From: Tubiluchus corallicola
Taxonomy: Eukaryota > Animalia > Priapulida
Length of the DNA: 38,902 nt
Direction of reading: 5' to 3'
Assembly: GCA_030141605.1 (NCBI GenBank)
Contig: JAQGDQ010002433.1
Span: 1 to 38,902 of the forward strand
Under the pieces are notes generated by a model, which was not told the DNA's origin, made no database searches, and saw nothing but the letters and a program-made list of their open reading frames with translations. Within the stretch, counting starts at the first letter, position 1. Every line of letters begins with the position of its first letter. The translations under genes were made by a program, and so were the position numbers. Of the stretch, positions 12,459 to 38,902 are shown one piece after another.

Positions 12459-13816
12459 ATGAAAGGAAAAATACTAATAACTCTTTTCTCTTTCATTACT
12501 TGTAAGCTGCCAAGAGCAAGAAAAAGAGCCAACATCGGATAATAACTCTAATACAACATTAGAAAAGCAAGAATTTGTTTTTGATGTAATGCAATCATTT
12601 TACTTGTGGGAAAATAATGTGAGCTTATTGCAAAACTATAAAGATGATGTTGATTTTAGTCTATACAAGAATGAAGAAGACCTATTTGATGACATCATTT
12701 ATGAAGAGAAAGATAGATGGTCGTTTATGATGTCTACCTCTGATGCAGAAGCATATTTTAATCAAGGCATCAACCCTGCAAGTTTTGGAGTTAGATTTGG
12801 GTTAAACTATCAAACGGGAGATGTGTATGTGATTATTATTTATTCTGATTCTCCATTTTATGCTGAGGGAATCAACAATAGGGGCTGGAAAGTAGTATCT
12901 ATTGATGGAGTAAGTGTGCGGGTAACTAATGACACAGAAAAGAACAATTTTCTTACGATGTTAGGAGAAGACAAAGTAGGAGTAACCAAAACATTTGAGT
13001 TAGCTTTTGAAGGTACTACTAAAACTATTACTGTTACCAAGAAAGATATTCATCTTAATTCTGTGTTAATGAAAAAAGTATTTGAAAGAGACAACAAGAA
13101 AATAGGCTACCTATTATATGATGCTTTTTTAAGCACCTCTAACGTTGAGTTAGATGAGGCATCAATATTTTGCAAGTGAAGATATCACAAAACTAATATT
13201 AGATTTACGCTATAATGGAGGAGGAAGCGTTGATATTGCCATTGATTTGTGTGGAAAAATCACAGGAAATACCAAAGTAGGAGAGGTCTTGATTAATTAC
13301 ACTTATAATAAGTATTTAACTGGTGCAGAGGGGTACCCAGAAAATAAGAAACTTTTTTCTGTTAATAATCCAGTGATGGGGATAGATGAGTTAATAGTTA
13401 TTGCAAAATCATCTACTGCTTCTGCTAGCGAACTAGTGATTGATGGTTTGCGGGAAGAATTGTTGTTTCCTGTAAAAGTAGTTGGCAAAAAAACAGAAGG
13501 CAAATATGTAGGGTCTTATTTGTTGCACTCTAAACTTTTTAAGCACTATTATGATTGGGATGATTTGAACATAACCCTATCTCCAATAACGTTTAAGTAT
13601 GGTGATTTTGAGGGTGGAATAGATGAGGATATAACTGTGGAGGATGATTTTTCTGAGCCATTTGGAGAAGCTACAGAAAGCATGTTGGCTGTTGCATTGG
13701 AGTATATAAAGACGGGATCTATACCTGTTGCACGCATGGGAAAAGTCACACAAAAAGAAGCGATATTGCTTAATGATAAAAAAGGATTAAGAGGCGCAAA
13801 CGGTGGTATTTATTAA
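12459..13816 (+). pseudogene. S41 (C-terminal processing) peptidase lipoprotein with PDZ domain, interrupted by two frameshifts
   Basis: ATG 12459 shifts near 12485-12495 into lipobox LLVSC, continuing into ORF 12589. A second shift near 13162 leads to LDLRYNGGG, TASASE and TEGK motifs. Confidence 0.85.
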
Positions 13817-26812: not shown

Positions 26813-27015
26813 CGCTTTGCTTTTGTTATTTTTGCTTCAATCCTTATAGTAAGAATATAGCATCTATTGAAATAATTTTTTTGTCTGAATTATGCAGTAT
26901 TCTAACGAAATAGCTCTGAGAATATGATGCTTTATGTTTTAGAGTATAATCGGCAAAACCAAATGAACATTTTTTTGTGAACAAAAATCACAATTTTTTC
27001 ATAAACAAAATTCAC

Positions 27016-27045
27016 AAAAAAGCCCTGCAACTTGCGGGGCTTTTT
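27016..27045. terminator. Bidirectional intrinsic terminator closing the leftward tail operon
   Basis: AAAAAAGCCCTGCAA-C-TTGCGGGGCTTTTT, 8 nt past the stop of ORF 27054. Confidence 0.85.
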
Positions 27046-27053
27046 ATACCATT

Positions 27054-27284
27054 TTATAATGTCGCTATTACAACACCGTTAAGTGCTTTAACCCTTCTTT
27101 TATTAACAAAATCGCTTTCTGTGTTCACGACAACAGAAATGCCTGTTATCTCTTGCTGTGTTACTTCTGTAAGGTTATCATTGGCAAATAATATTTCAGG
27201 CAATGCTGCAATATTGCCATACTCTTGATTCGCAACATCTAATAGGCTTTGCCGTTGTTGGATTATAATTGTTTTATCACTCAT
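27054..27284 (-). CDS. LysM-like baseplate protein (P2 gpX-like)
   Basis: QRQSLLDVANQEYGN.....ILFAN pattern; position after the wedge gene. Confidence 0.7.
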   Translation of the reverse strand: MSDKTIIIQQRQSLLDVANQEYGNIAALPEILFANDNLTEVTQQEITGISVVVNTESDFVNKRRVKALNGVVIATL

Positions 27285-27564
27285 AATATGCCTCTGTTAG
27301 TATCTTACCATCGACTAACTGTACGCTTTGTACCGTCATCCCATCCCTTCTAAATTCGTTTTTGATTGAAGTTATCACACTCCCGGGCTTGTCATCATTT
27401 AGCCAATTAGGCAATCCTACCCCTGCAGTAGGCTCATGTTTAAACGTGCCCTTTTCAGCCAATAGCAATAGCTTTTGATGCTGTTGGGTGCTTTCGCTTT
27501 TTTGAAAATCATTATCTCCAATTTGTAAATCTAAATTGTCATTTAGTAGAATGTCATATCTCAT
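27277..27564 (-). CDS. Baseplate wedge / sheath initiator (gp25/gpW-like)
   Basis: DILL...DL.I..DF..EST.QHQ..LL...KG.FK..PT.GVG; size and gene order. Confidence 0.7.
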   Translation of the reverse strand: MRYDILLNDNLDLQIGDNDFQKSESTQQHQKLLLLAEKGTFKHEPTAGVGLPNWLNDDKPGSVITSIKNEFRRDGMTVQSVQLVDGKILTEAYYE

Positions 27565-27568
27565 GTTG

Positions 27569-28135
27569 TTAGTGCGTTATAGTTGTATCTTCATAATCTG
27601 TTTTGTCAAAAACAGTAGCGTCATTAGCAGGTTGATTAGGTGGACCGGTTTTGGATGTCGGTGTTATATTGTGTTTGTGTGAATTCAATACATCTTTAAT
27701 ATCATTCACCTCACTCACCAACGCATTTAACTTATCCGTTAGCTCATTGATTTTTATTAAGCCGTAATTACCTCCCCCATTAAATACTATCTCTCCATCA
27801 TAGAAAGAGAGTGTAGAAGTTCCTATTTTCAGTTCGACGCTTTTCAGCTCGCTATACTTGACAGCCACATATTGCGAGCTGTCACCGAATGATTTTATTA
27901 GCACGGTACTACCAATTTTTGGAAACAGTATTAAAGCCTCACTAACACGGTCTATATTACTTTTTAAACGGACGTTAAATATCTCATTATCGCTGCTGTC
28001 TATTACATCGCAAGTTTGGTTTATAGTGTCGACCGATTGTACAGTTGCAGGGATTATGCCAATGCCTGCAATGCTTTTTATCATATTCTCGAGTCCGTTT
28101 CTTAATTGCTCTGCTCTATCATTTTGTTTTGCCAT
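27569..28135 (-). CDS. Central spike (P2 gpV / Mu gp45-like)
   Basis: OB-fold-like N-terminus (ATV.SVD...TCDV, P.IGS.V); C-terminal HxH metal-binding tip motif NSHKH. Confidence 0.8.
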   Translation of the reverse strand: MAKQNDRAEQLRNGLENMIKSIAGIGIIPATVQSVDTINQTCDVIDSSDNEIFNVRLKSNIDRVSEALILFPKIGSTVLIKSFGDSSQYVAVKYSELKSVELKIGTSTLSFYDGEIVFNGGGNYGLIKINELTDKLNALVSEVNDIKDVLNSHKHNITPTSKTGPPNQPANDATVFDKTDYEDTTITH

Positions 28136-28136
28136 A

Positions 28137-29123
28137 TCAAGATAATTTAATGCCTAGTTCCACGTTACGCCTTCCACCGTTAAGTCCGTAGGTAGTGGTA
28201 ACCTTATCCACATAATAGGTTCCTTCCCTTTTGGGGTAATTAGTGTCACTTATTTTTGCGGTATTTGTTGGCTGGTTAAAAGGTATTAAAAAGGTTTTCA
28301 AACTCCCTTTATAACCTGTAAATTTGAGTTTTTCAATTTCTCTTTTTGCCCTTTGTTTTATCGTCTCTCTATCCGAAATGTTATAAAAAAACAACGTTCT
28401 TAATTCCCCGTCGCTATCTCCTTCATCCTCCTCTATTTTAGTGTTGTCCTTTTGAATGGCTATTGCCTTCACTTTTATTTTAGTATCATCTTCACGGACA
28501 AACTCAAGGCTATTATCATCAATAGTATTTACCCCCATATTATAAATAACATTACTGCCAACCTGTGCATTTGGCAACCCAATAAAAAGCGTGTTATTGT
28601 CCTTAAAATACATCTGTAATCCATAATCGTTTTTAAGTTTATTAAGTGCAAAAGCAGCGGTTACATCTTGTATATAAAACTCACTAAACTGTATATCTAT
28701 ATCCTCTTCTGTCTCTTTGGCTATCTCTGTGTCTTTTAAAATAAAATCTATTATTGTGTTAAAATTGGTGTTTTTAAAAGCCTTTTTAATATTCTTTTTA
28801 CGTAAAATAAAGGAGGCGTCCTCACATTCAATTTCAAGCGGAGTATTTGGTTTTATTGCAGAAATGTAGCCTTCAAATTCTTTTTTTAGTTCTTCATTAT
28901 ATCCCAATTCTATGATTATTTTGTCTCCCACATTGAACGCCTTGGCGGGTTCTTTTTCTGCTAACAAATCACCTTCTTTTTTCAATCTGGCAGAGGTGGG
29001 CAATAAAATCTTTGCCGTGTCTGTAAGTGCCTTTACGGATTTTTCTATTTTAACTTCGTTGACTCTGGTTAGAGTGTAAGTCTCTTTTCCCGTTATTGTT
29101 ATTTTTGCTCCTAAAACATACAT
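28137..29123 (-). CDS. Baseplate hub (P2 gpD / Mu gp44-like)
   Basis: LTDTA.I.LP, I.LGY....EF.GYI, IECED and G.YYV..V.T.YG..G.R motifs. Confidence 0.8.
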   Translation of the reverse strand: MYVLGAKITITGKETYTLTRVNEVKIEKSVKALTDTAKILLPTSARLKKEGDLLAEKEPAKAFNVGDKIIIELGYNEELKKEFEGYISAIKPNTPLEIECEDASFILRKKNIKKAFKNTNFNTIIDFILKDTEIAKETEEDIDIQFSEFYIQDVTAAFALNKLKNDYGLQMYFKDNNTLFIGLPNAQVGSNVIYNMGVNTIDDNSLEFVREDDTKIKVKAIAIQKDNTKIEEDEGDSDGELRTLFFYNISDRETIKQRAKREIEKLKFTGYKGSLKTFLIPFNQPTNTAKISDTNYPKREGTYYVDKVTTTYGLNGGRRNVELGIKLS

Positions 29124-29124
29124 T

Positions 29125-29751
29125 TTACTCTAATTCTAAAATAAAGTCTTCATCACTTGTGCATAAGAATTCATAAGCTTGTGCATGTTGAATACCTACC
29201 ATTTCTGGTAAACGAAAATCTTTTATCACAAGCCTCTCAACACCCAAGATATTTGTTAGCAATTCGTTATTCACAGGCAAGCTTTCATTTAACAAAAACA
29301 GCTCCTTTAATTGTTCCACTTGTTCGCTAGGATATTTGTACATGTTGTTAAAATCTATTACAATGCCACGTATATTTATATTATAATCAGTCGTGTTTAT
29401 TAGTTCCTTGACGGTTCCTTTTCTACTACTACCTGTCAAGGGTGTTTCTACAATGTTTTTCTTTATGTCAACTTGTAAAATGGGTTCATTGGGCAGTTGA
29501 ATTCCATTAATAGATATTGGCATAAATAACGGTGTGCCAAGAGGAGTTGAACGGTTTAACCCATCAGTAAAAGTGGGTTGTTTTGTGTTTTGTATTTGCT
29601 GGTTAGGGTCAAACCCTTCAGCAGTTGTAACATCTGTTTCAATTGGAGGTTGCAAAAAGGGCAATCCCTTATAACCAAAAGCAAGTTCAAATAGTTGAGG
29701 TAAATTGAACTCTGCCGGTCTTTGTCGTGTTATTATGCCACCTGTTACCAT
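29125..29751 (-). CDS. Tail tube initiator (DUF6046-like, gpU position)
   Basis: KNIVET.L.G..RKGTVKELI...DY.I.IRG; terminal C.SDEDF.LE; immediately after the tape measure gene. Confidence 0.7.
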   Translation of the reverse strand: MVTGGIITRQRPAEFNLPQLFELAFGYKGLPFLQPPIETDVTTAEGFDPNQQIQNTKQPTFTDGLNRSTPLGTPLFMPISINGIQLPNEPILQVDIKKNIVETPLTGSSRKGTVKELINTTDYNINIRGIVIDFNNMYKYPSEQVEQLKELFLLNESLPVNNELLTNILGVERLVIKDFRLPEMVGIQHAQAYEFLCTSDEDFILELE

Positions 29752-29753
29752 TG

Positions 29754-31391
29754 TTATTGTGTTTGTATTTGGTTAAATCCATTGACGGCATTTATAACAG
29801 ATTCCAGTATTCTTTCGCCAGCTGCTTCGGCACCATCTGCTATTTCTTTTGTGTTTATGTTTATGCCATCCATAAATTTACCTATGGTTATATTAATGTT
29901 TTTCACCTGCTTTCCTCCTGTGGTTATTGCAGTTGTGCCTTGTGTCACATCTGTGGGAGGAGCGGTTGTTTCTTTTGGAGAAATGGCTCCCTGCATTGCT
30001 TGTGTCATATCTGTGGGAGGAGCGGTTGTTTCTTTTGGAGAAATGGCTCCCTGCATTGCTTGTGTTACATCTGTGGGGGGTGTTATTCCTGCCGCCGCCA
30101 CTGATGGAGCTGTTCCTCCTGCCCCTGCAGCAGAAGGGGTTAAATCGCCTGCTTTGCTTAATTGTTTCTTGCTTTCGCCAATGTAATTGGACGCAAAATT
30201 CTGTCCAAAGGTTTTTCCTGCTTGAGCTCCTGCCTTACCGATAGCTACGATTGGCGTAGTGTCAAGTATCCCTTTACCCAAACTGCTAAATCCCTCCTTT
30301 GCCGCTTCAGCAGCCTCTTTAAATTCACCCTCGAACAATTTGCTAATTGCTGTGCCTAATAACCCAAGCCCTTTTAAAACGTTTTTTATCCCCTCCAGAA
30401 AAGTACCAAACAAAGTAGATGTAAATGTTTTCAATGCTTCCCAAGTGGTAATTATTACAGCCCTAAATCTCGCAAATTTCTGCCATGCAAAAACAACTGC
30501 AGAAGTTAATGCCACTATTGCCGTAATTATCAAACCCCATCCACTGGCCTTCATGGCAACATTTAATAGCCATTGTGCCGCCGTCCAAAGTTTTGTTGCT
30601 ATAGATACGGTATTCGTTGCCACATTTAACAGCCATTGTGCCGCCGTCCAAAATTTTGTTTGTTGGATAATGAACAGCAATGAGTCTCCAGTATCAGATA
30701 ATTCAGTTTGTAGTCCGCTAGTGGCTGATTTTAGCAGAGTCATGCCTGCTGCTAAACTGCCCAGTTGTTTTGCTGCTACATTTTTGGCTGTACTACCGAC
30801 ACTGCCAAATTCTTGAATTAATTCTCTTATGCTATCAGTTCCGCCTTGTACTAAGCCAGTCAGCTTACTCCCTGCAATTTGTCCAAAAATGTCTAACACA
30901 CTTGCCCCAGTATTCCCTGCTTCATTTAAGTCATTAATTGTACCAATAAGTGAATGAATCGTCCCATTGCTTTCTAAATGATTTAATGCGTTTTGTGCGT
31001 CTATAGTTGGTTTTTGTAATTTCGCAAAAGAGGAAGCGAGGGCGGTACCTGCCAAGCTTCCTTGCATCCCAATGTTACCAAATTTCTCTATAAGTGTCAG
31101 CGTATCAGAAATGCTTTGATTTGCTGCTGTAGCGGCTGGTGCTGTTAGATTTAATGACTTGCCTAGCTGCTCTAAATTAACGCTAGCGCTTGTGGTTGTT
31201 AGTGCCAGTTTGTCGTTAAGTTCGGCTGTTTTGTTTGTTTCTAATCTAAAAGCAGCGAGGGTGTTGCTGGTGGCTTTTTGTTGCTTGTCAAATTTAGCAA
31301 CAGAAGTACTTAGTTTATTTATAGAATTTATTAATTTGTCTACACTACTACTTTTACCTTGTACTTCTATGGGTATTTGATACGTTGCCAC
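29754..31391 (-). CDS. Tail tape measure protein (short, 545 aa)
   Basis: GTG start; Ala/Gly-rich helical sequence; G..GS.AGTAL TP901-like segment; TAAQWLLNVA repeats; C-terminal GGKQVKNINITI. Confidence 0.9.
   Translation of the reverse strand: MATYQIPIEVQGKSSSVDKLINSINKLSTSVAKFDKQQKATSNTLAAFRLETNKTAELNDKLALTTTSASVNLEQLGKSLNLTAPAATAANQSISDTLTLIEKFGNIGMQGSLAGTALASSFAKLQKPTIDAQNALNHLESNGTIHSLIGTINDLNEAGNTGASVLDIFGQIAGSKLTGLVQGGTDSIRELIQEFGSVGSTAKNVAAKQLGSLAAGMTLLKSATSGLQTELSDTGDSLLFIIQQTKFWTAAQWLLNVATNTVSIATKLWTAAQWLLNVAMKASGWGLIITAIVALTSAVVFAWQKFARFRAVIITTWEALKTFTSTLFGTFLEGIKNVLKGLGLLGTAISKLFEGEFKEAAEAAKEGFSSLGKGILDTTPIVAIGKAGAQAGKTFGQNFASNYIGESKKQLSKAGDLTPSAAGAGGTAPSVAAAGITPPTDVTQAMQGAISPKETTAPPTDMTQAMQGAISPKETTAPPTDVTQGTTAITTGGKQVKNINITIGKFMDGININTKEIADGAEAAGERILESVINAVNGFNQIQTQ
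29939..30080 (-). repeat. About 2.3 copies of a 60-bp in-frame repeat (PPTD[VM]TQAMQGAISPKETTA) in the tape measure gene
   Basis: 29941-30000 and 30001-30060 differ at one base; partial third copy. Confidence 0.92.
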
Positions 31392-31566
31392 CGCCTGCTT
31401 CTTTTTTTCTTATGTCAATTAAATTTTTAAAATTCATTACCCACTCTTCGTTGCTCATTTCCCTTAATTCGTTACGAGAAATGCCTAAATAGTACATTAA
31501 CATTGTGTTAATGTATCCGATATAATTGCTATTAACTCCTCCATTGCAGGAGTTTATAACTTTTTT
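31354..31566 (-). CDS. -1 frameshift extension of the tail assembly chaperone (gpGT-like)
   Basis: Slippery A AAA AAG at 31566-31560. The -1 frame stays open: VINSCNGGVNSNYIGYINTMLMYYLGISRNELREMSNEEWVMNFKNLIDIRKKEAGGGNVSNTHRSTR*. Confidence 0.75.
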   Translation of the reverse strand, partial: KKVINSCNGGVNSNYIGYINTMLMYYLGISRNELREMSNEEWVMNFKNLIDIRKKEAGGGNVSNTHRSTR

Positions 31567-31853
31567 ATCTCTGCATTTCCTATTTTGAGGATTTTATCCA
31601 ATGTTGCAATAGTGCTTATTTGCATCTCCCATTTTGTTTTGAATTGCTCATCGCCCGCCACAAAGCAATTGTTTATAATAGTTGATGCGTAGTCAAGGGT
31701 TTTATTTTGTGACATATACATGAGTGCCATGTTTACAGTCTCTCTATCTGGTGCTTTCAGATAACATTTCTTTTGTTCACCTTCAAACGTTATTGTTATT
31801 TCGTAAACGTCTTTGTATTTTTTTTTTAGCTCTTCAATATTGGCTTTGCTCAT
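31554..31853 (-). CDS. Tail assembly chaperone (gpG-like)
   Basis: I.ELKKKY, CYLK.PDR and NCFV.GDE motifs; ends EIKKL; precedes the tape measure gene. Confidence 0.8.
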   Translation of the reverse strand: MSKANIEELKKKYKDVYEITITFEGEQKKCYLKAPDRETVNMALMYMSQNKTLDYASTIINNCFVAGDEQFKTKWEMQISTIATLDKILKIGNAEIKKL

Positions 31854-31890
31854 TTTATTAGTTTTTAATTATATGTTTTATAATAAAATA

Positions 31891-32079
31891 TTAATTCTGA
31901 TCTTTGATATCTTGTTTATTATTGAACTCTCCTTTGTTATTTTTGCCTTTTATTTTTTGCTTTTTCACTTCTTGAACAAAAGTGGGCTTGTCTAAAAATT
32001 TAGCATAAAACCATGTCCCACTACCAAATCCAATGACAAACCCTAAAAGGATATGGATAATATATTTTTTGATTCCCAT
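31891..32079 (-). CDS. Small N-terminally anchored Lys-rich protein (possible i-spanin or lysis accessory)
   Basis: Start re-called at ATG 32079 (MGIKKY); one hydrophobic helix then a charged tail; last gene of the lysis cassette. Confidence 0.5.
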   Translation of the reverse strand: MGIKKYIIHILLGFVIGFGSGTWFYAKFLDKPTFVQEVKKQKIKGKNNKGEFNNKQDIKDQN

Positions 32080-32081
32080 AG

Positions 32082-32300
32082 CTATGAGTTTTTTCTTTCT
32101 ACTCTTTTTTCTTGCACAGCAACTCCCCACAACATGACTGCCAATCCTTGTAATATTGAAAGAAAAGCTATGTCATTGGTTTGTAATCCATCTCCAATAA
32201 ACATTCGCACCAGACCTACTAACAAAACTATATATGTGATGATATTGGCTGCTAACAGCTTTCCATTATATCGTCCGTTATTTTTTATCATATCTTTCAT
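32082..32300 (-). CDS. Putative holin (two transmembrane helices)
   Basis: 72 aa; two hydrophobic segments; charged C-terminus; start overlaps the amidase stop. Confidence 0.6.
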   Translation of the reverse strand: MKDMIKNNGRYNGKLLAANIITYIVLLVGLVRMFIGDGLQTNDIAFLSILQGLAVMLWGVAVQEKRVERKNS

Positions 32301-32683
32301 AATGCTTCTTTTACATTAAAACAAGGGCATTTTTTATTTGCAAACTCACAATGTCCATGTGTTGTTGCACGAGGGTATTTATACTGTAGCTCGCCTACTA
32401 AGTCTTTCAATGCCACTTTCTGCTCTGGTGTTCGGTTGTCCTCTCCGTCTTTTCCTCCTACCCAGCAGACACCTATACTCCCTTTATTTTTGCCCATGCA
32501 GTGGGCTCCAACCTCTTTATCCTCCCGTCCTTTTTCTATTTCTCCATTGCGTTTTATTACATAGTGATAACCTATTTTTTCCCACCCCTTTTGTTTATGC
32601 CAGCTATCTATTTCTTTTGCTCCAATATCCATACCCGTAGGTGTGTCAGAACAGTGAATTATTAGTTTAGTTATCTTTCTCAT
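32297..32683 (-). CDS. Endolysin, N-acetylmuramoyl-L-alanine amidase (T7 lysozyme-like)
   Basis: IIHCS, GW..IGYH, GAH, SIGVC.VGG, GH and K.CP motifs; start re-called at ATG 32683. Confidence 0.92.
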   Translation of the reverse strand: MRKITKLIIHCSDTPTGMDIGAKEIDSWHKQKGWEKIGYHYVIKRNGEIEKGREDKEVGAHCMGKNKGSIGVCWVGGKDGEDNRTPEQKVALKDLVGELQYKYPRATTHGHCEFANKKCPCFNVKEAL

Positions 32684-32688
32684 TTTCT

Positions 32689-32943
32689 TTATAACGCTCG
32701 CACAAAAAAGTATACGATCATTGCGGAAACAACACTGCATATTATTGCCGTAACTCCACCCCATATCATGGCTTGATTTTTCATTTTTGTCTCTAATATC
32801 GCCACCTTGACTTTTTGTTCTTCATGCTCTTTCAAAAGCGTTTCTACTTTTGCTTGAATGTCTTTAAAGGAGTAGAAAAGTTTTAGTAATAATTCTTTTT
32901 GAGTTAATTTATCCGGTTGGATATATTGCTCCTTATTGCTCAT
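32689..32943 (-). CDS. Coiled-coil protein with a C-terminal transmembrane helix (holin/XhlA-like)
   Basis: Heptad-rich region then hydrophobic MIWGGVTAIICSVVSAMIVYFFV; directly upstream of the endolysin. Confidence 0.55.
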   Translation of the reverse strand: MSNKEQYIQPDKLTQKELLLKLFYSFKDIQAKVETLLKEHEEQKVKVAILETKMKNQAMIWGGVTAIICSVVSAMIVYFFVRAL

Positions 32944-32948
32944 TCTCT

Positions 32949-33374
32949 CTATACATTATACTTTATGTTCAATGCCACAAATGGCAATTCTATTTGCGAA
33001 TTCAAATCACCTTGAGACATTGCAGTGTCAAATTCAGTTACTTGTACGTTTTCAATGTTATCTCTGGTTATTTTGGGGTTCGTCACATCTCCACTATATG
33101 ACACTGAAATGTTAAATGTTATCTCTGTCAGGTCTTTTGCCCCTACCTCTCTTGCGGCTTTATTAAGAGCTATCACTTCACTTTGTAGCAATGTAATAGA
33201 CCCTTCGTAAGCTTTATTGCCATTTTGAATCGCCAACGGAGCGCTACCTCTGCCATAGAGGGGTTCGTGTACTCGGGAGGTTCTGTAACTTATTCCTATA
33301 AACCCGACTAATGGACGTCCCAAAATACTAATTTCTATGTTTTCCCAAGCATATTGCTTTGCGTTTACTGCCAT
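32949..33374 (-). CDS. Contractile tail tube protein
   Basis: N.KQYAW, YGRG..P..IQ.GN..YEGSITLLQSE and QGD...IELPF motifs; follows the sheath gene. Confidence 0.85.
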   Translation of the reverse strand: MAVNAKQYAWENIEISILGRPLVGFIGISYRTSRVHEPLYGRGSAPLAIQNGNKAYEGSITLLQSEVIALNKAAREVGAKDLTEITFNISVSYSGDVTNPKITRDNIENVQVTEFDTAMSQGDLNSQIELPFVALNIKYNV

Positions 33375-33379
33375 GTTAA

Positions 33380-34573
33380 CTAATTTAATGCAGGGTTCAC
33401 AAACCCTATTTCTACAATTATTTTTTTTGCATAACCTACAGGTGTAATCTCTAATATTATCTTTATTTCACCTGTAGATAAAATGTTTTGTTCAGGGTCT
33501 ATAAATGCACTTACACTGCTTATTTCCCCCCCGCTTGTCATTTGCTGGTCTATTACTGTTTCAATATTTGTCTGTAAGTTGCCAGCAATTGAAGGTAATA
33601 TGTTGCCATTTTCTGTTACACCTATTTCATCCAATAACTCATTTACATAAGTAATGTACGTAAGTAAATATGCCTTATCTATTACCCTACCATTCGCCAA
33701 AGTTTTGTAATCGTCAGTATCAGCAGTTGCCATTGGGTCGTCAGAAAGGAAGTATCCTGCGCGTCCTTGATAGAAACGCAATAACATATATCCTTTGTCA
33801 TGAACAGCATCCAGTTGCAATTCTTGGCCTTCTACTGTCACGCCGTTAGATAAATAAGCGTCTGTTATTGGAAGAGACCCGTCTTTTACCCTTCCTACAT
33901 TTCTTTGCACTGGAATATTTGATATTTTGCCTAATAATAGGCCAACGGAAGAGCTGCCGTCCGTTAATGTACTACCTATAAATATTGCACTTCGGTTTTT
34001 ATCATCGGTTTTTAGGTCTGTTAAGTCGCCAGGTGTTCCTGTATAACTTCTACCCTCTAAAATTATTCTAAATGGCTTATACCTATCATTATATGTTTCG
34101 GCTAATATCTGCCCTGTAATTAAGGCGTCAAAAGCCTCCTGGTCAATTCCATTCGTTACATCTGGAGTATAACCTACATCTGGAGAGCGTGTAACTCCTA
34201 ACACTTTGACTCTACCATTAGCGGCGTCTAATAGATTTACAGCATAATTTCCCTCGTTAATATCAACGAGACTATCCATTGCAATGGTTTGGGATGTTAC
34301 TAATATCCACAATTCTGCTCCTGTTCCTGCAGCATCATAAAACTCTTTCAAATGCCTGTATACGTTTACAGAGTTGGCTATATCGTAATTCTCGTCTATT
34401 TTCAATTCATCAACAGCTTGTTTTAAGGAAAATATTTGGTACGGTGTGTTCAACTCCACGCCACTAGCAACTGCCACACCTTGGAGTATCAAACCCATTA
34501 TTCCATCATCCACCGAAGGCGTACTACCGAGGCCTCCCTGTTGTAATTGTATGTCTATTTTTGGTAATGGCAT
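33380..34573 (-). CDS. Contractile tail sheath protein (DUF2586-like)
   Basis: EFY..AG.G.ELW, PVQRNVGRVKDG, LHDKGY-like, RVIDKA and P.GYA..I.V.IGF motifs; 397 aa. Confidence 0.88.
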   Translation of the reverse strand: MPLPKIDIQLQQGGLGSTPSVDDGIMGLILQGVAVASGVELNTPYQIFSLKQAVDELKIDENYDIANSVNVYRHLKEFYDAAGTGAELWILVTSQTIAMDSLVDINEGNYAVNLLDAANGRVKVLGVTRSPDVGYTPDVTNGIDQEAFDALITGQILAETYNDRYKPFRIILEGRSYTGTPGDLTDLKTDDKNRSAIFIGSTLTDGSSSVGLLLGKISNIPVQRNVGRVKDGSLPITDAYLSNGVTVEGQELQLDAVHDKGYMLLRFYQGRAGYFLSDDPMATADTDDYKTLANGRVIDKAYLLTYITYVNELLDEIGVTENGNILPSIAGNLQTNIETVIDQQMTSGGEISSVSAFIDPEQNILSTGEIKIILEITPVGYAKKIIVEIGFVNPALN

Positions 34574-34576
34574 AGT

Positions 34577-34957
34577 TTATCTTTTTTTGTTTTTTTGTGA
34601 AATTTTTCGATTATCTGCCGAAGGTTCTTTTCCCTCTGTGGTGTCGTTGTCTTTCTGTTCTTGTCCTTTTTTTGTCACAGCCTGTGCTTCTACTACTTCT
34701 TTTGTTTTTGCCTCTGCTTTTTTCTTTTCCTTTTCTCTTTTCTCTTTTTCTCTTTTTTGCTGTTCCTTGTGTGCCAGTTTTTCTGCTTCTGTTTTGGTTA
34801 TTATTTGCACCTTACCTTTCCCATCTGGTTTTGCTTTTCTATTTAGCGAAACTTGATGCTCATTTGCCAACAACTCCTTTCCAAAAGGAGTCCCATCAGT
34901 TGTAATGTATATCTCCTTGAAATTTGGATTCGCTTTAAATATTTTGTTGTAATTCAT
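34577..34957 (-). CDS. Small phage structural-region protein with a Lys/Glu-rich tail
   Basis: IF..NP...EIY.T.DG.PF...A..H domain; first intact gene of the leftward operon, between the capsid scrap and the sheath. Confidence 0.6.
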   Translation of the reverse strand: MNYNKIFKANPNFKEIYITTDGTPFGKELLANEHQVSLNRKAKPDGKGKVQIITKTEAEKLAHKEQQKREKEKREKEKKKAEAKTKEVVEAQAVTKKGQEQKDNDTTEGKEPSADNRKISQKNKKR

Positions 34958-34975
34958 TTCTTATTTTGTTTGTTT

Positions 34976-35059
34976 TTATATATCGCTTACAATTGATCCT
35001 ATATACTTATTCCTTTTTGGTAAAGCTATAAAACGGTGTTGAAGTCCTATTGTATCCTT
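34976..35059 (-). pseudogene. Probable C-terminal remnant of a major capsid protein
   Basis: Start-less frame KDTIGLQHRFIALPKRNKYIGSIVSDI*, resembling from recall the G.RH.FIALP....IGAI.S ends of Bacteroidota prophage capsids; expected position. Confidence 0.55.
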
Positions 35060-35124
35060 ATTAGAAATGTTTGTTTCACGCCTCCAAAAGTTTTAAAACA
35101 AAGGAATGAAAGCTAAAAGACAAC

Positions 35125-35161
35125 TGCAAAAAGAGTTGCAATCCTTGCAACTCTTTTTGCA
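35125..35161. promoter_or_regulatory. Perfect 17-bp inverted repeat in the divergent control region
   Basis: TGCAAAAAGAGTTGCAA-TCC-TTGCAACTCTTTTTGCA; near-consensus -7 boxes on each side (AACTTTTG on - at 35085-35092, TTCATTTG on + at 35180-35187). Confidence 0.7.
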
Positions 35162-35191
35162 AAAAAGTTAGTAGACACGTTCATTTGTAGC

Positions 35192-35290
35192 ATGAAAAGA
35201 GAAGATAAAAAGGGGCTTGGCAAAGCGCTCTTTTTACAAACGAATTACAGCCGAAAAAAATATCAGGACGATTAGGTGTGCCTCTTGAGA
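35192..35290 (+). pseudogene. Probable N-terminal remnant of a small terminase / HTH protein
   Basis: MKREDKKGLGKALFLQTNYSRK, then across an A7 run ISGRLGV: an HTH start that breaks off. Confidence 0.55.
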
Positions 35291-35334
35291 GCGGTTATGC
35301 ACTTGAAAAGTACAACCGCTCTAAGCCGACAAGT

Positions 35335-35497
35335 AAAGATAAAACAGTTGAAATCTATTGAGCCTAGTTTGCCGACACACAATGAGGATCCTGATGCAAT
35401 AGAGGGTACTGTTTGGGTGATAAACAGTAAATTGCACCAATACAACAAAAACCAACTTACGACTGGAAGAATGAAAGGCCATACAAAGCGGTTTTAA
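35335..35497 (+). pseudogene. Probable C-terminal remnant of the large terminase
   Basis: QLKSIEPSLPTHNEDPDAIEGTVWVIN resembles a degenerate HDD.PDA.EG nuclease motif; no upstream ATPase domain. Confidence 0.6.
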
Positions 35498-35626
35498 GGA
35501 ATGAAAAAACAAAAGTAGCAATAGAGTGCATGAAAAACAAAATAGGCAAAATTAAACAGCTTTAAACAGGTTTTAAACAGCGTGTTGAGTGCCTTGTATG
35601 GTAAGCAAAACTAAAACAGTAAAAAT

Positions 35627-35740
35627 ATGAAATTAAAAGCAATTAATGACGTGGTTTCTTCTTCTGTAAGCGGTGGCGACGCAACAGCAGCAAATCAAAC
35701 CACGCAAATTAATATGACTTTTGAAATACAATACTTATAA
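35627..35740 (+). CDS. 37-aa ORF, probably a deletion chimera of phage genes
   Basis: MKLKAINDVVSSSVSGGDATAANQTTQINMTFEIQYL*; stop lies 2 nt before baseplate J. Confidence 0.4.
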   Translation: MKLKAINDVVSSSVSGGDATAANQTTQINMTFEIQYL

Positions 35741-35742
35741 TT

Positions 35743-36558
35743 ATGAGAACCTTTGAAGAAATTAGAGATGAAATATTAGATAATGTGGAAACAAACTTTC
35801 CATCGTTTGATAGAAATACCGCAAGCAAAACCGCTATCTGGCTACTTTGGGTAAATATAACCGCAATGGCAATATATGTTTTTGAGCAGATTTTTTATAA
35901 GGAGAGAGAGGGTTTGTTGTCGGTATTTGAAGAGAATAAATATGGTACGTTGACATGGTACAGGCAAATTGTTCTCGCGTTTCAGTTTGGCTACGAATTG
36001 GAAGAACAAGAGGATCGAACATTTCAATATCCAACAATTGACGAGGAGGCAAAAATTATCGCACAAGCAGCAATAGTGGAAAATACAGTAACAAGCCTAC
36101 TTACTATAAAAGTGGCAAAAGAGAGCGGAGGAACATTAGCACCACTTGAAAATGAAGAACTTGAAGCTTTCACACAATATATACAATTGGTAAAAGTTGC
36201 TGGTACGTTGTTAAACATTATCAGCTTTCCGCCAGATGTGTTTAATGTAGTTGCAGAGGTGGATTATGACCCACAAGTAACGGAGGAGGTAACAATAGAG
36301 AATATTAAGGCTTCATTGGAGAGTTATCAATTTAATTTCACATTCAACGGTGTCATTAATCGTAACGACGTAATAGATGTATTGCAAGCAACGACAGGCG
36401 TCAAGGATGTGAAAATAACTACATTGGATGTAACGCCTGATGGAGGTGGCACTTTGGCAATAGACAAGGAGGAACTAACGGAGGCGGGCTATTTTGTCTA
36501 CGATGGAGGAGTGCAGGCGATAGTCGATGCATTTACTTATATTCCTAAAACGACATAA
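35743..36558 (+). CDS. Baseplate wedge protein (gpJ-like)
   Basis: MRT.EEI, SKTAIW.LW, GTL.WY....LAFQ.G, IKVAK and VKVAGT...IIS..PD motifs. Confidence 0.8.
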   Translation: MRTFEEIRDEILDNVETNFPSFDRNTASKTAIWLLWVNITAMAIYVFEQIFYKEREGLLSVFEENKYGTLTWYRQIVLAFQFGYELEEQEDRTFQYPTIDEEAKIIAQAAIVENTVTSLLTIKVAKESGGTLAPLENEELEAFTQYIQLVKVAGTLLNIISFPPDVFNVVAEVDYDPQVTEEVTIENIKASLESYQFNFTFNGVINRNDVIDVLQATTGVKDVKITTLDVTPDGGGTLAIDKEELTEAGYFVYDGGVQAIVDAFTYIPKTT

Positions 36559-36561
36559 AAG

Positions 36562-37083
36562 ATGAATTTTTTAGGGTTTGACATAAACAAATTTATAGCG
36601 CAATATTTGGGAGCGTTATTTAACAAAGACAAACAAAGAGGTTGGATAGAGTCCCTTTTGTCGCCATTGGTAACCTTGTGGGGGGAGTATGTCGTTGATA
36701 GGCAGAACATATTAGAGATTGCCAATATAAAGCCTTCTAAAATAAGTCTTGAAAGGCATTTGAACAAATTATATGATGCAACATTAGAGAGGATATTTCT
36801 TACAGAGAAAAAGGATTTGATATTTTTTGTTTTTACAGAGGGAGAGGCTCAACCTGCGATTTATATATATTTTGAGGTGGAGGCAATGACTCCGTTTTAC
36901 TCGTTTTTGGAAGGAGAAAATACGGTGGTATCGATAAACTTTTTTATAGTAGTGATACCCGATGACTTGGCAGTTGCCACGCCAGAGATAAAAGAGACAG
37001 TAAGGGCGGAGGTGCAAAAATATAAATCAGGAGGATTCTTCTTTGAAATTTTGTTTGATAGTGAATTTGCAACAATAACATAA
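36562..37083 (+). CDS. Baseplate wedge protein (gpI-like)
   Basis: W..SLL.P, SLE..LN..YD....RI, F.VVIP and V.KYK..G..F.I motifs; follows the J-like gene. Confidence 0.7.
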   Translation: MNFLGFDINKFIAQYLGALFNKDKQRGWIESLLSPLVTLWGEYVVDRQNILEIANIKPSKISLERHLNKLYDATLERIFLTEKKDLIFFVFTEGEAQPAIYIYFEVEAMTPFYSFLEGENTVVSINFFIVVIPDDLAVATPEIKETVRAEVQKYKSGGFFFEILFDSEFATIT

Positions 37084-37087
37084 AACC

Positions 37088-37258
37088 ATGAATATAAACC
37101 AACAGTGCCCTAATTGTAGAGAAACAGATATAAAAATAACCACGCTTGCAGAGCAAGAGTATTATGGGTGTAGAGCGTGTGGCATGGCTTACAAGTTAAT
37201 TATGGGCTTGCCTTATACAAAGAGAAAAAATAGAAAGAGAGCTTTATATAACGATTAA
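37088..37258 (+). CDS. Unannotated 56-aa zinc-ribbon protein
   Basis: Hand-translated MNINQQCPNCRETDIKITTLAEQEYYGCRACGMAYKLIMGLPYTKRKNRKRALYND*; CxxC-x17-CxxC plus a basic tail; fills the gap with 4-nt and 11-nt spacings. Confidence 0.7.
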   Translation: MNINQQCPNCRETDIKITTLAEQEYYGCRACGMAYKLIMGLPYTKRKNRKRALYND

Positions 37259-37269
37259 AAAATAATATT

Positions 37270-38532
37270 ATGAGTATAACAATAGAACAGAGAAAGAGAG
37301 TGGTAAATGAAACTGGTGGTCGTCCGTTTTTTGCAGCAGACCAACAGCGTATTAACGCAATATATGATGTGTTGGATAGATTTTTAAAAAGTGCCAACAC
37401 CAAGCCTGACGGCGATTTGGAGGGGTTTATATTAGATGGATTTGATTTTGCAGATTTAGGAGGAGACCTATACGATATTAGCAATGGGTATGCTGTGATA
37501 GATGGCGAGCTGGTATTTTTTCAGGGGGACAACAATGTAGACCTATCCACTCCGAAGTATTTAATCAAGCAAAAAACATTTACACAAAAGCCGTATCAAA
37601 CGGGAGGTAACAAAAACTTTTCTGAGCTCTACGAAGGTGTGATAAGTGCAACAGACCCCGCGCCAGCCGATAGGGTGATAATAACTGCTCCAAGCGGTGG
37701 AGAAAGCACTTTAAGAACATGGGAGCTGGCATTGCAGCAGCGAATTGTAGCCAATGGCGTAACGGACAAAAAAATACCTATATGGAGTGAAACAAAAAAC
37801 GCGTTTAAAGATAGCAACATAATCCAAGAAGACAATGGCGATGTGAGAATAGATGGGGATAATTTTAGATACGGAGACAAAAAAAAATATACGGGTGCTT
37901 TTTTTAGCTCCACTGAGTTTATGGTGGCGGCAAGAGTTACTATTAATAAGGGGAATGATGGAAGTTTTAAGGCTAAAATATATAACAACAACACCATTTT
38001 TGGAAATAGTCGGAATTTGTGGGGAGAAGCAGTGGTACTGTGTCCAAGTAATAGAGATCAGGGCAAGGGACCTAGATGGCAGGCAGAGTGGTACGCAACC
38101 AATAGTACCGCGAAAATACAAGTAGTGGAAATTGCAACAAACATATATGAGGTGCAGGTTAAGACGTATGAACATAGTGGAAGTTGGCACTTTATAGAAT
38201 TGGAATTTTTTAGAGGGCGTTTTCCATCGAGTGTTGAATTTAACCAAGGAGCAGCAACCAATACCACTCCTATTGCAAGCCAATATCACAAATATTATAA
38301 CGGAAGAGTTATCAGCAACAAAGTAGTACAAGGGACTTCTGGAGGATCTCCCAACACTCATAAAACAATAAATCATGGACTAAATAGCACCAACGTGCTG
38401 GTTCTATGTAGTTCTCAGAGAACTGCTTCAGGGTACACAACAACCATTAATTATAAGATTGTAGATGCCAACAATATCCAATTTAAATTAGGCGGAGGTG
38501 GCAACTATACTAGAAACTTTTCGTATAGATAG
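37270..38532 (+). CDS. Tail fibre / receptor-binding protein
   Basis: N-terminal attachment-like region (GG.PF, IS.GY.VIDGELV.F.G); beta-rich C-terminal part with a TI.HGL motif; last gene of the rightward operon. Confidence 0.7.
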   Translation: MSITIEQRKRVVNETGGRPFFAADQQRINAIYDVLDRFLKSANTKPDGDLEGFILDGFDFADLGGDLYDISNGYAVIDGELVFFQGDNNVDLSTPKYLIKQKTFTQKPYQTGGNKNFSELYEGVISATDPAPADRVIITAPSGGESTLRTWELALQQRIVANGVTDKKIPIWSETKNAFKDSNIIQEDNGDVRIDGDNFRYGDKKKYTGAFFSSTEFMVAARVTINKGNDGSFKAKIYNNNTIFGNSRNLWGEAVVLCPSNRDQGKGPRWQAEWYATNSTAKIQVVEIATNIYEVQVKTYEHSGSWHFIELEFFRGRFPSSVEFNQGAATNTTPIASQYHKYYNGRVISNKVVQGTSGGSPNTHKTINHGLNSTNVLVLCSSQRTASGYTTTINYKIVDANNIQFKLGGGGNYTRNFSYR

Positions 38533-38548
38533 AACGTCTGAATGAAGT

Positions 38549-38574
38549 AAAAGGGAGCTCTTAAGCTCCTTTTT
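38549..38574. terminator. Bidirectional intrinsic terminator closing the rightward tail operon
   Basis: AAAAGGGAGCT-CTTA-AGCTCCTTTTT. Confidence 0.8.
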
Positions 38575-38598
38575 GTGGTTATGTTATTCTTGGCAGCT

Positions 38599-38902
38599 TT
38601 AGCTGCTCCAAAATAGCATCTCTTTTTTCTTCTGGAGACGTGTTAGCATAAAAATCAGCAAATGTTCCGTTGATTCAGCATTCATCTGTAATAGGAAAAT
38701 TTCGTCTAAGAGCTCCTCTGGCGTATAATATTTGTTTATAAGCTCTGTAGCTTTACATTCCCACCCCGCTAACTCAACTCCCCTACGAATCCATAAAAAA
38801 TAAATATCTGTAAACTCTAAGCTTTTTATGAAGTTGAGTTTTTCCTGCGTATCAACTTCACACTCACCCTCCAGCGTTCCTACGTTGATAGTCACTTCAA
38901 AA
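38599..38902 (-). CDS. Hypothetical protein, probably truncated by the window edge
   Basis: Frame open to the window end; converges on the terminator; no recognised motif. Confidence 0.45.
   Translation of the reverse strand, partial: FEVTINVGTLEGECEVDTQEKLNFIKSLEFTDIYFLWIRRGVELAGWECKATELINKYYTPEELLDEIFLLQMNAESTEHLLIFMLTRLQKKKEMLFWSS

What the first reader, a model, noticed from the sequence alone, without database searches (positions are those of the whole stretch)
27054..38574. Candidate new Bacteroidota tailocin: complete contractile tail and lysis genes, head removed
Seen: sheath, tube, chaperone, tape measure, initiator, hub, spike, gp25-like, LysM-like, J-like, I-like, fibre, amidase and holin-like genes are all uninterrupted and tightly coupled. 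They sit in two divergent operons, each closed by a terminator. No intact capsid, portal, protease or terminase is present. Known: R-type pyocins and other tailocins arose this way from P2- or Mu-like phages. Described Bacteroidota contractile systems (BIS, AlgoCIS, Amoebophilus T6SS-iv) are Afp/eCIS-type, whereas these genes are phage-type with a DUF2586-like sheath. Inference: an independently domesticated phage-tail weapon released by lysis. I cannot verify from here that it is undescribed.
Basis: partly seen in the sequence, partly recalled or inferred. Interest (0 to 1): 0.9.

Follow-up and report, generated by a model that had tools for sequence, protein, structure and literature searches.

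The report
Headless phage tail missing its collar
This stretch is a Mu-like prophage that has lost its head, DNA-packaging and tail-collar genes but kept its other tail and lysis genes, so it is likely a leftover that cannot fire on its own, whereas related head-less clusters in Chitinophaga keep the collar, are conserved by selection and are likely undescribed bacterial weapons (tailocins).

Summary
The tail, baseplate, fibre and lysis genes are there and open, in two divergent operons with terminators. Only scraps of capsid and both terminase genes remain. The element derives from a Mu-like, Winoviridae-related prophage.

The tail is not complete. The tail terminator/collar gene is absent from the window; a profile finds it in the closest phage relative. 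In solved tailocins the collar ties tube to sheath. It is kept in 37 of 40 head-less relatives (7 lineages). The tape measure lacks about 160-180 N-terminal residues and the LysM-like gene its C-terminus.

No close relative exists (sheath at most 53% identical), no genome is held, and the contig ends 0.3 kb past the cluster. Domestication of this locus is therefore unshown. Best reading: a recent head-deleted remnant (0.55). A working tailocin with its collar elsewhere remains possible (0.3).

Among 103 Chitinophaga-genus genomes, 21 carry head-less, collar-keeping clusters in two separate clades (dN/dS about 0.1), and 20 of the 21 show no cognate capsid or terminase. One clade keeps Mu repressor and transposase. 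Nine literature searches found no description.

The parts
27016..27045 (-). Terminator-like hairpin closing the left (sheath) operon
   Evidence: 4 of 200 shuffles as stable; not listed by the strict scan
27054..27284 (-). LysM-like baseplate gene, C-terminally short (76 aa; family median 101)
27277..27564 (-). gp25-like baseplate wedge/sheath initiator
   Evidence: phrog_120 E 2e-4; family profile
27569..28135 (-). Spike-like protein (label inferred from position and a C-terminal HxH motif)
28137..29123 (-). Baseplate hub
   Evidence: phrog_4930 E 5e-77
29125..29751 (-). DUF6046 tube-initiator-like protein
29754..31391 (-). Tape measure protein, TP901 type, in frame, 545 aa; about 160-180 N-terminal residues shorter than its 4 same-type relatives (781-817 aa)
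31354..31503 (-). Small chaperone-extension-like ORF; reads into the tape measure start
   Evidence: family c26, E 8e-13
31554..31853 (-). Tail assembly chaperone-like gene
   Evidence: phrog_19076
31891..32079 (-). 62-aa lysis-region gene with a hydrophobic N-terminus; one prophage homologue
32082..32300 (-). Holin-like protein, 2 predicted membrane helices
   Evidence: hydropathy scan; function inferred
32297..32683 (-). N-acetylmuramoyl-L-alanine amidase (endolysin)
   Evidence: PF01510, phrog_822
32689..32943 (-). 84-aa protein with a C-terminal membrane helix, shared with related prophages
32949..33374 (-). Tail tube
   Evidence: phrog_4579
33380..34573 (-). Tail sheath, DUF2586
   Evidence: PF10758 E 2e-52, phrog_907; 55 of 60 conserved columns kept
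34577..34957 (-). 126-aa gene that lies between capsid and sheath in relatives; not a collar
34982..35059 (-). Scrap: C-terminal ~26 residues of the major capsid protein
35124..35162 (.). 17-bp perfect inverted repeat in the phage-derived divergent promoter region; contains TTGCAAA, enriched about 6-fold at this place in 121 headed relatives
   Evidence: role inferred
35192..35289 (+). Scrap: N-terminus of small terminase, with a 1-nt frameshift in an A-run
35330..35497 (+). Scrap: C-terminal ~54 residues of large terminase
35627..35740 (+). 37-codon ORF coupled to J; unidentified, no match to the collar profile
35743..36558 (+). Baseplate J-like wedge protein
36562..37083 (+). Baseplate I-like protein (6 of 10 conserved columns kept)
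37088..37258 (+). 56-aa zinc-ribbon ORF of unknown role
   Evidence: weak hits only
37270..38532 (+). Tail fibre: N-terminal anchor shared with relatives, C-terminal part without homologues; several versions of the tip in one sample
38547..38576 (+). Terminator closing the right operon
38599..38902 (-). Unidentified ORF cut by the window end; several similar contigs in the sample

Best explanation
The cluster is the remnant of a Mu-like, Winoviridae-related prophage that has lost its head, packaging and collar genes while keeping its other tail and lysis genes, and it is likely unable to make a firing tail by itself. Shown: at least three deletions at the divergent late promoter removed protease plus most of the capsid gene, most of both terminase genes, and the adaptor-portal-neck-terminator block. 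Inferred: the last deletion took the tail terminator/collar with it. If the phage late promoter were switched on (its likely activator is not in the window), the cell would assemble baseplate, a shortened tube (about 85 nm, scaled from phage Peternella) and sheath, then lyse. Without a collar, sheath contraction would not push the tube into a target. The deletions are likely recent, so open reading frames do not yet show selection.
For: Collar absent: the profile (93 sequences) folds like the Mu terminator and the pyocin R2 and diffocin collars. It finds the gene in the closest phage relative (E 1e-43) and in 93 of 93 held-out members (minimum 37.6 bits), but scores -1.8 bits in the window. 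The collar tethers tube to sheath and transduces force (PMC11329794, passages). It is kept in 37 of 40 head-less relatives, in 7 lineages, and seen in 62 of 65 headed ones with room to show it. Two of the 3 exceptions lie in genomes that also hold a full prophage and are otherwise damaged. The small predicted regulator is in 34 of 37 of those loci (partly by construction) and not in the window. Head scraps score at the 15th, 34th and 48th percentile of intact homologues. The tape measure scores lowest of 121, LysM-like in the bottom 2%. The sheath nests among headed prophages. No fetched locus shares the layout or, apart from a repeat-domain hit, the flanking genes.
Against: All 17 tail and lysis ORFs are open over 10.3 kb that include ten A/T runs of 7 or more, while the short TerS scrap already carries a frameshift. 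Conserved columns are well kept in sheath, tube, hub, initiator, spike, gp25 and J. The tape measure deletion is in frame. Terminators sit directly behind both last genes. Contigs of the same sample differ from the window at 26 listed fibre codons (19 non-synonymous, 7 synonymous) but at only 2 listed sites elsewhere in the cluster, as expected for a fibre in use. The window ends 0.3 kb past the cluster, and a second copy of the left end exists in the sample, so a collar or activator could lie elsewhere. The scraps are short, so their age estimate is weak.
Confidence: 0.55

Rival explanations
1. A young R-type tailocin: the host keeps the tail and lysis genes, the collar and activator lie beyond the contig end or in a second related element, and lysis releases tails that puncture related cells, with fibre-tip exchange setting the target range.
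For: Open, well-conserved tail genes; deletions concentrated on head genes; terminators; fibre-tip variation. The same phage family lost heads and kept tails in at least 7 other lineages, under purifying selection in Chitinophaga. Fibre exchange is known in carotovoricin (PMC13195805, abstract).
Against: In those lineages the collar stays inside the cluster. Here it was removed with the neck block. No second strain or species carries the cluster.
Confidence: 0.3
2. A satellite-like tail cassette: the remnant supplies tail parts or alternative fibre tips to a related, intact Mu-like helper prophage in the same cell or population, by complementation or recombination.
For: A 686-bp contig at about double depth (26945-27630) with a second left flank seen in two runs, and at least three fibre-tip versions.
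Against: No contig related at 80% or more extends over sheath, hub or J in run X1; depth there is that of a single contig. Contig depth is not copy number.
Confidence: 0.1
3. Assembly artefact: an intact prophage was collapsed or mis-joined, which hides the head and collar genes.
For: The window ends in a repeat, and several versions of the fibre tip coexist.
Against: One 7,810-nt contig spans the whole deletion gap with no listed difference there, and no joints were listed. Three separate in-order scraps are hard to get by mis-joining.
Confidence: 0.05

Closest known systems
Winoviridae (Winogradskyella phage Peternella_1, Flavobacterium phage lotta8-1)
   Same: DUF2586 sheath, same tail gene order, small terminase divergent from protease/capsid in Peternella. 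Peternella is a Mu-like myovirus with a 106-nm tail (PMC8776804, passages).
   Different: Sheath only 24-27% identical. Head, portal, neck, adaptor and terminator are deleted; no transposase or repressor in the window; J-I-fibre sit on the terminase side (only 1 of 146 related loci with J has it displaced, in another way).
R-type tailocins (pyocin R2, diffocin, syringacin, carotovoricin)
   Same: Head-less contractile tail with lysis genes; independent co-option from a prophage is known (PMC4542187, abstract).
   Different: Pyocin R2 and diffocin have a collar; the window has none. Syringacin and carotovoricin are conserved across species (abstracts); this cluster is known from one sample.
Head-less DUF2586 clusters of Chitinophaga, types A and B (found here, not described in the papers searched)
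   Same: Same phage family, head genes gone, tail and usually lysis genes kept.
   Different: They keep the collar and a small predicted regulator, form two well-supported clades (0.998, 0.986), show dN/dS about 0.1 and span many species. The window is outside both clades.
Bacteroidota eCIS (Afp-type; AlgoCIS, BIS and T6SS-iv recalled)
   Same: Contractile tail machinery in Bacteroidota; 89% of sequenced Chitinophaga carry eCIS (PMC8213781, passages).
   Different: That survey required Afp12/13/14/16 and excluded R-type pyocins. Pfam, PHROGs and NCBIfam scans gave no Afp-type ATPase or effector-type hit in the window's cluster.

Membership tests
R-type tailocin | Sheath, tube, tape measure, baseplate and fibre genes | tested here: met
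   tape measure and LysM-like gene shortened
R-type tailocin | Collar/terminator that tethers tube to sheath | tested here: not met
   absent from the window (positive control); could lie outside the window
R-type tailocin | No capsid, portal or terminase at the locus | tested here: met
   only scraps
R-type tailocin | No cognate head genes elsewhere in the genome | not testable with these tools
   no genome held
R-type tailocin | Lysis cassette | tested here: met
   amidase and holin-like gene; no lipoprotein spanin-like gene recognised, but many headed relatives also show none
R-type tailocin | Dedicated regulator at the locus | tested here: not met
   no match to the small predicted regulator family or repressor in the window
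R-type tailocin | Conserved across strains or species under purifying selection | tested here: inconclusive
   no close relative: sheath at most 53%, host guaA at most 69% in 401 genomes
R-type tailocin | Particles on induction that kill related cells | not testable with these tools
   needs culture
Winoviridae-like Mu-type prophage (origin) | Homologous sheath, hub, capsid, terminase and tail gene order | tested here: met
Winoviridae-like Mu-type prophage (intact) | Protease, neck, capsid, portal core genes; transposase | tested here: not met
   deleted or not in the window
Afp-type eCIS | Afp-specific core genes and ATPase | tested here: not met
   no such hit in Pfam, PHROGs or NCBIfam scans of the cluster ORFs; no dedicated eCIS profiles were run
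R-type tailocin (Chitinophaga types A and B) | Full tail with collar, no cognate head genes, purifying selection | tested here: met
   21 of 21 keep the collar; no TerL or MCP found in 20 of 21 genomes; dN/dS 0.115 and 0.087; killing not tested

The most novel reading that the evidence does not exclude
Mu-like Winoviridae-related prophages have been turned into R-type tailocins many times in Bacteroidota: at least seven head-less, collar-keeping lineages, two of them spread through Chitinophaga under strong purifying selection. One is a transposable tailocin that keeps Mu repressor and transposase, sits at several chromosomal sites and carries 5-7 tandem paralogous genes behind the fibre. The window is a further, very recent head loss caught at the start of this route.
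Probability: 0.6. Interest if true: 0.8.

Novelty: new variant of a known kind. Interest (0 to 1): 0.6.

Why it matters
The window alone is probably an ordinary prophage remnant. It led, however, to a testable family: I found no phage-type R tailocin described for Bacteroidota, and named Chitinophaga species (for example C. tropicalis, C. varians, C. silvisoli) carry complete, selected, head-less clusters that can be induced and assayed now. Chitinophaga live in soil and with fungi, so such weapons would shape those communities. The repeated pattern (lose the head, keep the collar) gives a simple rule for telling domesticated tails from decaying prophages. The transposase-keeping type would link tailocins to replicative transposition.

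Tried and rejected
Own-genome and relatives searches: no genome held. Exact look-up of 10 window proteins: 0 of 10 in the collection. No RNA holder listed. Single-sequence fold of the fibre failed (pLDDT 35.5). Atlas searches for the fibre tip and the end ORF gave only leads under 0.9. The fibre search against 1.84 billion proteins gave 6 hits, all anchored in the N-terminal part. The 37-codon ORF and the 126-aa gene as hidden collars: rejected. A weak portal-profile hit in the gap overlaps the TerL scrap and crosses stops; not counted. No Rfam match. No repeat pair near the fibre suggesting an invertible segment or retroelement template. Short loose ends at 31310-31436, 33358, 33550 and 35106 were not interpreted; they may come from other organisms. 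A 2-nt gap in an A-run of the chaperone gene in one low-depth contig of X2 is treated as probable error. Codon composition is close to the host's (GC3 0.32 vs 0.30) and uninformative. The regulator label of family A5 rests on weak HTH hits in a few of 34 members. The collar search missed a divergent member in genome G509 that the same profile scores at 24 bits, so genome-wide absences are 'not found'. Three look-ups of earlier scan findings gave nothing that bears on this. Literature searches found no description of these clusters; subscription papers are not covered, and the supplements of the PhageTAILor preprint (416 Bacteroidota training genomes; passages seen) could not be seen and may list such loci.
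Full report
OBSERVATION. The window ends in a block of phage genes between host genes on the left and an unidentified, cut ORF on the right. Seventeen tail, baseplate, fibre and lysis ORFs are open (10,290 nt). Pfam, PHROGs and NCBIfam identify the DUF2586 sheath, tube, hub, DUF6046 initiator, TP901-type tape measure and amidase, with weak hits for gp25-like and J-like genes. The two operons diverge and each ends in a terminator-like hairpin. The host is a Bacteroidota without close sequenced relatives: its GMP synthase is at most 69% identical among 401 genomes of the order that holds a Microscilla genome, and 60% to a Chitinophaga. No genome is held for the window.

ORIGIN. The best of 858 sheath homologues is 53% identical. 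Sheath-based scans fetched loci from viral, genome and metagenome collections. Most show the layout of the Mu-like myovirus Peternella_1 (Winoviridae; PMC8776804, passages): terminator, neck, portal, adaptor and both terminase genes on one strand, diverging from protease, capsid, sheath, tube, chaperone, tape measure, initiator, hub, spike, gp25, LysM-like, J, I and fibre. In the 786-nt gap between the window's operons lie, in ancestral order and orientation, the last ~26 residues of the capsid protein, the first ~30 of small terminase (with a 1-nt frameshift) and the last ~54 of large terminase. Each beats all shuffles (0 of 200, 0 of 500, 0 of 200). At least three deletions are therefore needed. 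One 7,810-nt contig of run X1 spans the gap without a listed difference there; X1 may be the source sample. In a sheath tree of 226 sequences the window is sister to headed prophage L126 (support 0.93) and nested among headed prophages. J-I-fibre lie on the terminase side here. Only 1 of 146 related loci with J has it displaced, but the closest relative has its LysM-like gene behind the terminator in that operon, so the shuffle may predate the deletions.

THE MISSING COLLAR. Related loci carry a ~160-aa 'tail completion' gene. Its predicted structure (pLDDT 89) matches best the Mu terminator, the pyocin R2 collar and the diffocin collar (E 2e-7 to 2e-6). In diffocin the collar tethers tube to sheath and acts as force transducer, and the tape measure N-termini contact it (PMC11329794, passages). 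A 93-sequence profile finds the gene in the closest relative (E 1e-43) and in 93 of 93 held-out members (from a joint alignment), but gives -1.8 bits at best in the window's six frames. Of 269 loci, 233 were left after removing identical sheaths: 170 headed, 37 head-less with collar, 3 head-less without, 23 too short to tell. The 37 fall into 7 lineages, so they are not 37 independent cases. Of the 3 exceptions, L007 and L032 lie in genomes that also hold a full prophage and lack an initiator ORF or have a short sheath; L224 probably has a divergent head. In a separate sample, 37 of the 48 matches were fetched: 32 headed, 2 head-less with collar, 1 head-less without collar in 4.3 kb of upstream DNA, 2 too short; none shares the window's layout. 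A small predicted DNA-binding gene next to the collar is in 34 of the 37 (the profile was built partly from them) and absent from the window.

SIGNS FOR AND AGAINST SELECTION IN THE WINDOW. Against: the head scraps score at the 15th, 34th and 48th percentile of intact homologues, so little time has passed, though the scraps are short. The tape measure scores lowest of 121 and its matching segment starts about 160-180 residues earlier than in the 4 same-type relatives. The LysM-like gene lacks its last 18 core columns, though the closest relative shows that its place after gp25 is not fixed. The I-like gene keeps 6 of 10 conserved columns. For: no stop or frameshift inside the tail genes despite ten long A/T runs, whereas the TerS scrap has one; sheath 55 of 60, hub 30 of 32, initiator 12 of 12, tube 9 of 9, gp25 11 of 11 conserved columns kept; the tape measure deletion is in frame. 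Contigs of the one sample that holds the stretch differ from the window at 26 listed fibre codons (19 non-synonymous, 7 synonymous; the listing was cut) and at 2 listed sites elsewhere. Runs X1 and X2 carry different mixes, and both have an extra base near the stop that lengthens the protein by a few residues. This could be a fibre under diversifying selection, neutral variation, or a second locus. A second copy of 26907-27699 in another context is also present. None of this settles the matter.

MECHANISM. Shown: gene content, deletions, absence of collar, regulator, repressor and transposase in the window. Inferred: the phage late promoter region survives (17-bp palindrome with a motif enriched at this place in 121 headed relatives). 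If activated in trans, the cell would build an uncapped tail of about 85 nm (0.158 nm per residue from Peternella) and lyse through holin and amidase. Without a collar the tube would not be driven. I give 0.55 to a non-firing remnant, 0.3 to a young tailocin completed from outside the window, 0.1 to a cassette serving a helper phage, 0.05 to artefact.

THE RELATIVES. In the genus of G001 (record title Chitinophaga tropicalis), 24 of 103 genomes hold 27 DUF2586 sheath loci. Fifteen are type A: regulator-like gene, collar, holin-like gene, usually amidase, full tail, no head. Six are type B: the same plus Mu-type transposase A and B, an HTH repressor and 5-7 tandem paralogues of about 330 aa behind the fibre, in at least four different flanking contexts. 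Four are full prophages and two are another phage type. Cognate large terminase and capsid were each found in 4 of 103 genomes, the four with full prophages; so 20 of 21 genomes with a head-less cluster show neither, with the caveats that some genomes are incomplete and one (G485) has a divergent headed element. Types A and B are separate clades (0.998, 0.986). Over ten tail genes, median dN/dS is 0.115 for 32 of 105 type A pairs and 0.087 for 4 of 15 type B pairs, the rest having dS outside 0.02-1.5. Further head-less, collar-keeping loci occur in Flavobacteriales, Candidatus Azobacteroides and Microscilla records and unnamed contigs. These meet every sequence criterion for R-type tailocins; particles and killing are untested.

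COMPARISON AND NOVELTY. The closest known systems are R-type tailocins, which arose more than once from prophages (PMC4542187, abstract) and exchange fibres (PMC13195805, abstract). Chitinophaga is known for Afp-type eCIS, in a survey that excluded R-type pyocins (PMC8213781, passages). Nine searches found no paper on these clusters and none mentioning DUF2586. The PhageTAILor preprint does not mention Chitinophaga in its main text (passages); its supplements could not be seen. The names BIS, AlgoCIS and T6SS-iv are recalled, not tested.

VERDICT. Observation partly confirmed. The window is most likely a recent head- and collar-deleted prophage remnant (about 0.3 interest alone). The family it belongs to has very likely produced undescribed tailocins in cultured Bacteroidota, which lifts the overall interest to 0.6.

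Noticed in passing
L203-L215, L227, L228 (Chitinophaga genus, type A): Conserved head-less contractile-tail cluster with collar, lysis genes and a predicted regulator in 15 genomes; dN/dS about 0.12; cognate head genes found in only 1 of the 15. Strong tailocin candidate; flanking genes differ between subgroups.
   Followed up: yes
L216-L218, L220-L222, L353-L364 (Chitinophaga genus, type B): Head-less tail cluster that keeps an HTH repressor and Mu transposase A and B, lies in at least four flanking contexts and ends in 5-7 tandem paralogues of about 330 aa with no Pfam match. Candidate transposable tailocin.
   Followed up: partly
L110, L111, L113, L139; L027; L071; L270; L309; L339; L341: Further head-less, collar-keeping DUF2586 clusters in other Bacteroidota; L111 and L113 also keep transposase genes.
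   Followed up: partly
window 37773-38621: At least three versions of the fibre tip in one sample, while the rest of the cluster is nearly invariant.
   Followed up: partly
window 26907-27699: A second copy of the left end (terminator, LysM-like, gp25, spike end) occurs in another context in runs X1 and X2.
   Followed up: partly
window 35124-35162: Perfect 17-bp palindrome in the divergent promoter; head-less locus L071 has a similar 13-bp palindrome at the same place.
   Followed up: partly
window 38599-38902: Unidentified ORF with several similar contigs in the sample; probably why the contig ends.
   Followed up: partly
window 12589-13816: An S41 peptidase is split into two overlapping ORFs (N-terminal/PDZ part and catalytic part), possibly a frameshifted gene.
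   Followed up: no
window 9048-11703: A GH20 beta-hexosaminidase appears split into a carbohydrate-binding ORF and a catalytic ORF behind a SusC/SusD pair.
   Followed up: no
L313:1501-2748: In the closest phage relative the tail terminator is fused to an extra ~250-aa domain.
   Followed up: no
L348: Two tandem DUF2586 sheath genes in a locus with no head or collar gene in the 4.3 kb upstream.
   Followed up: no
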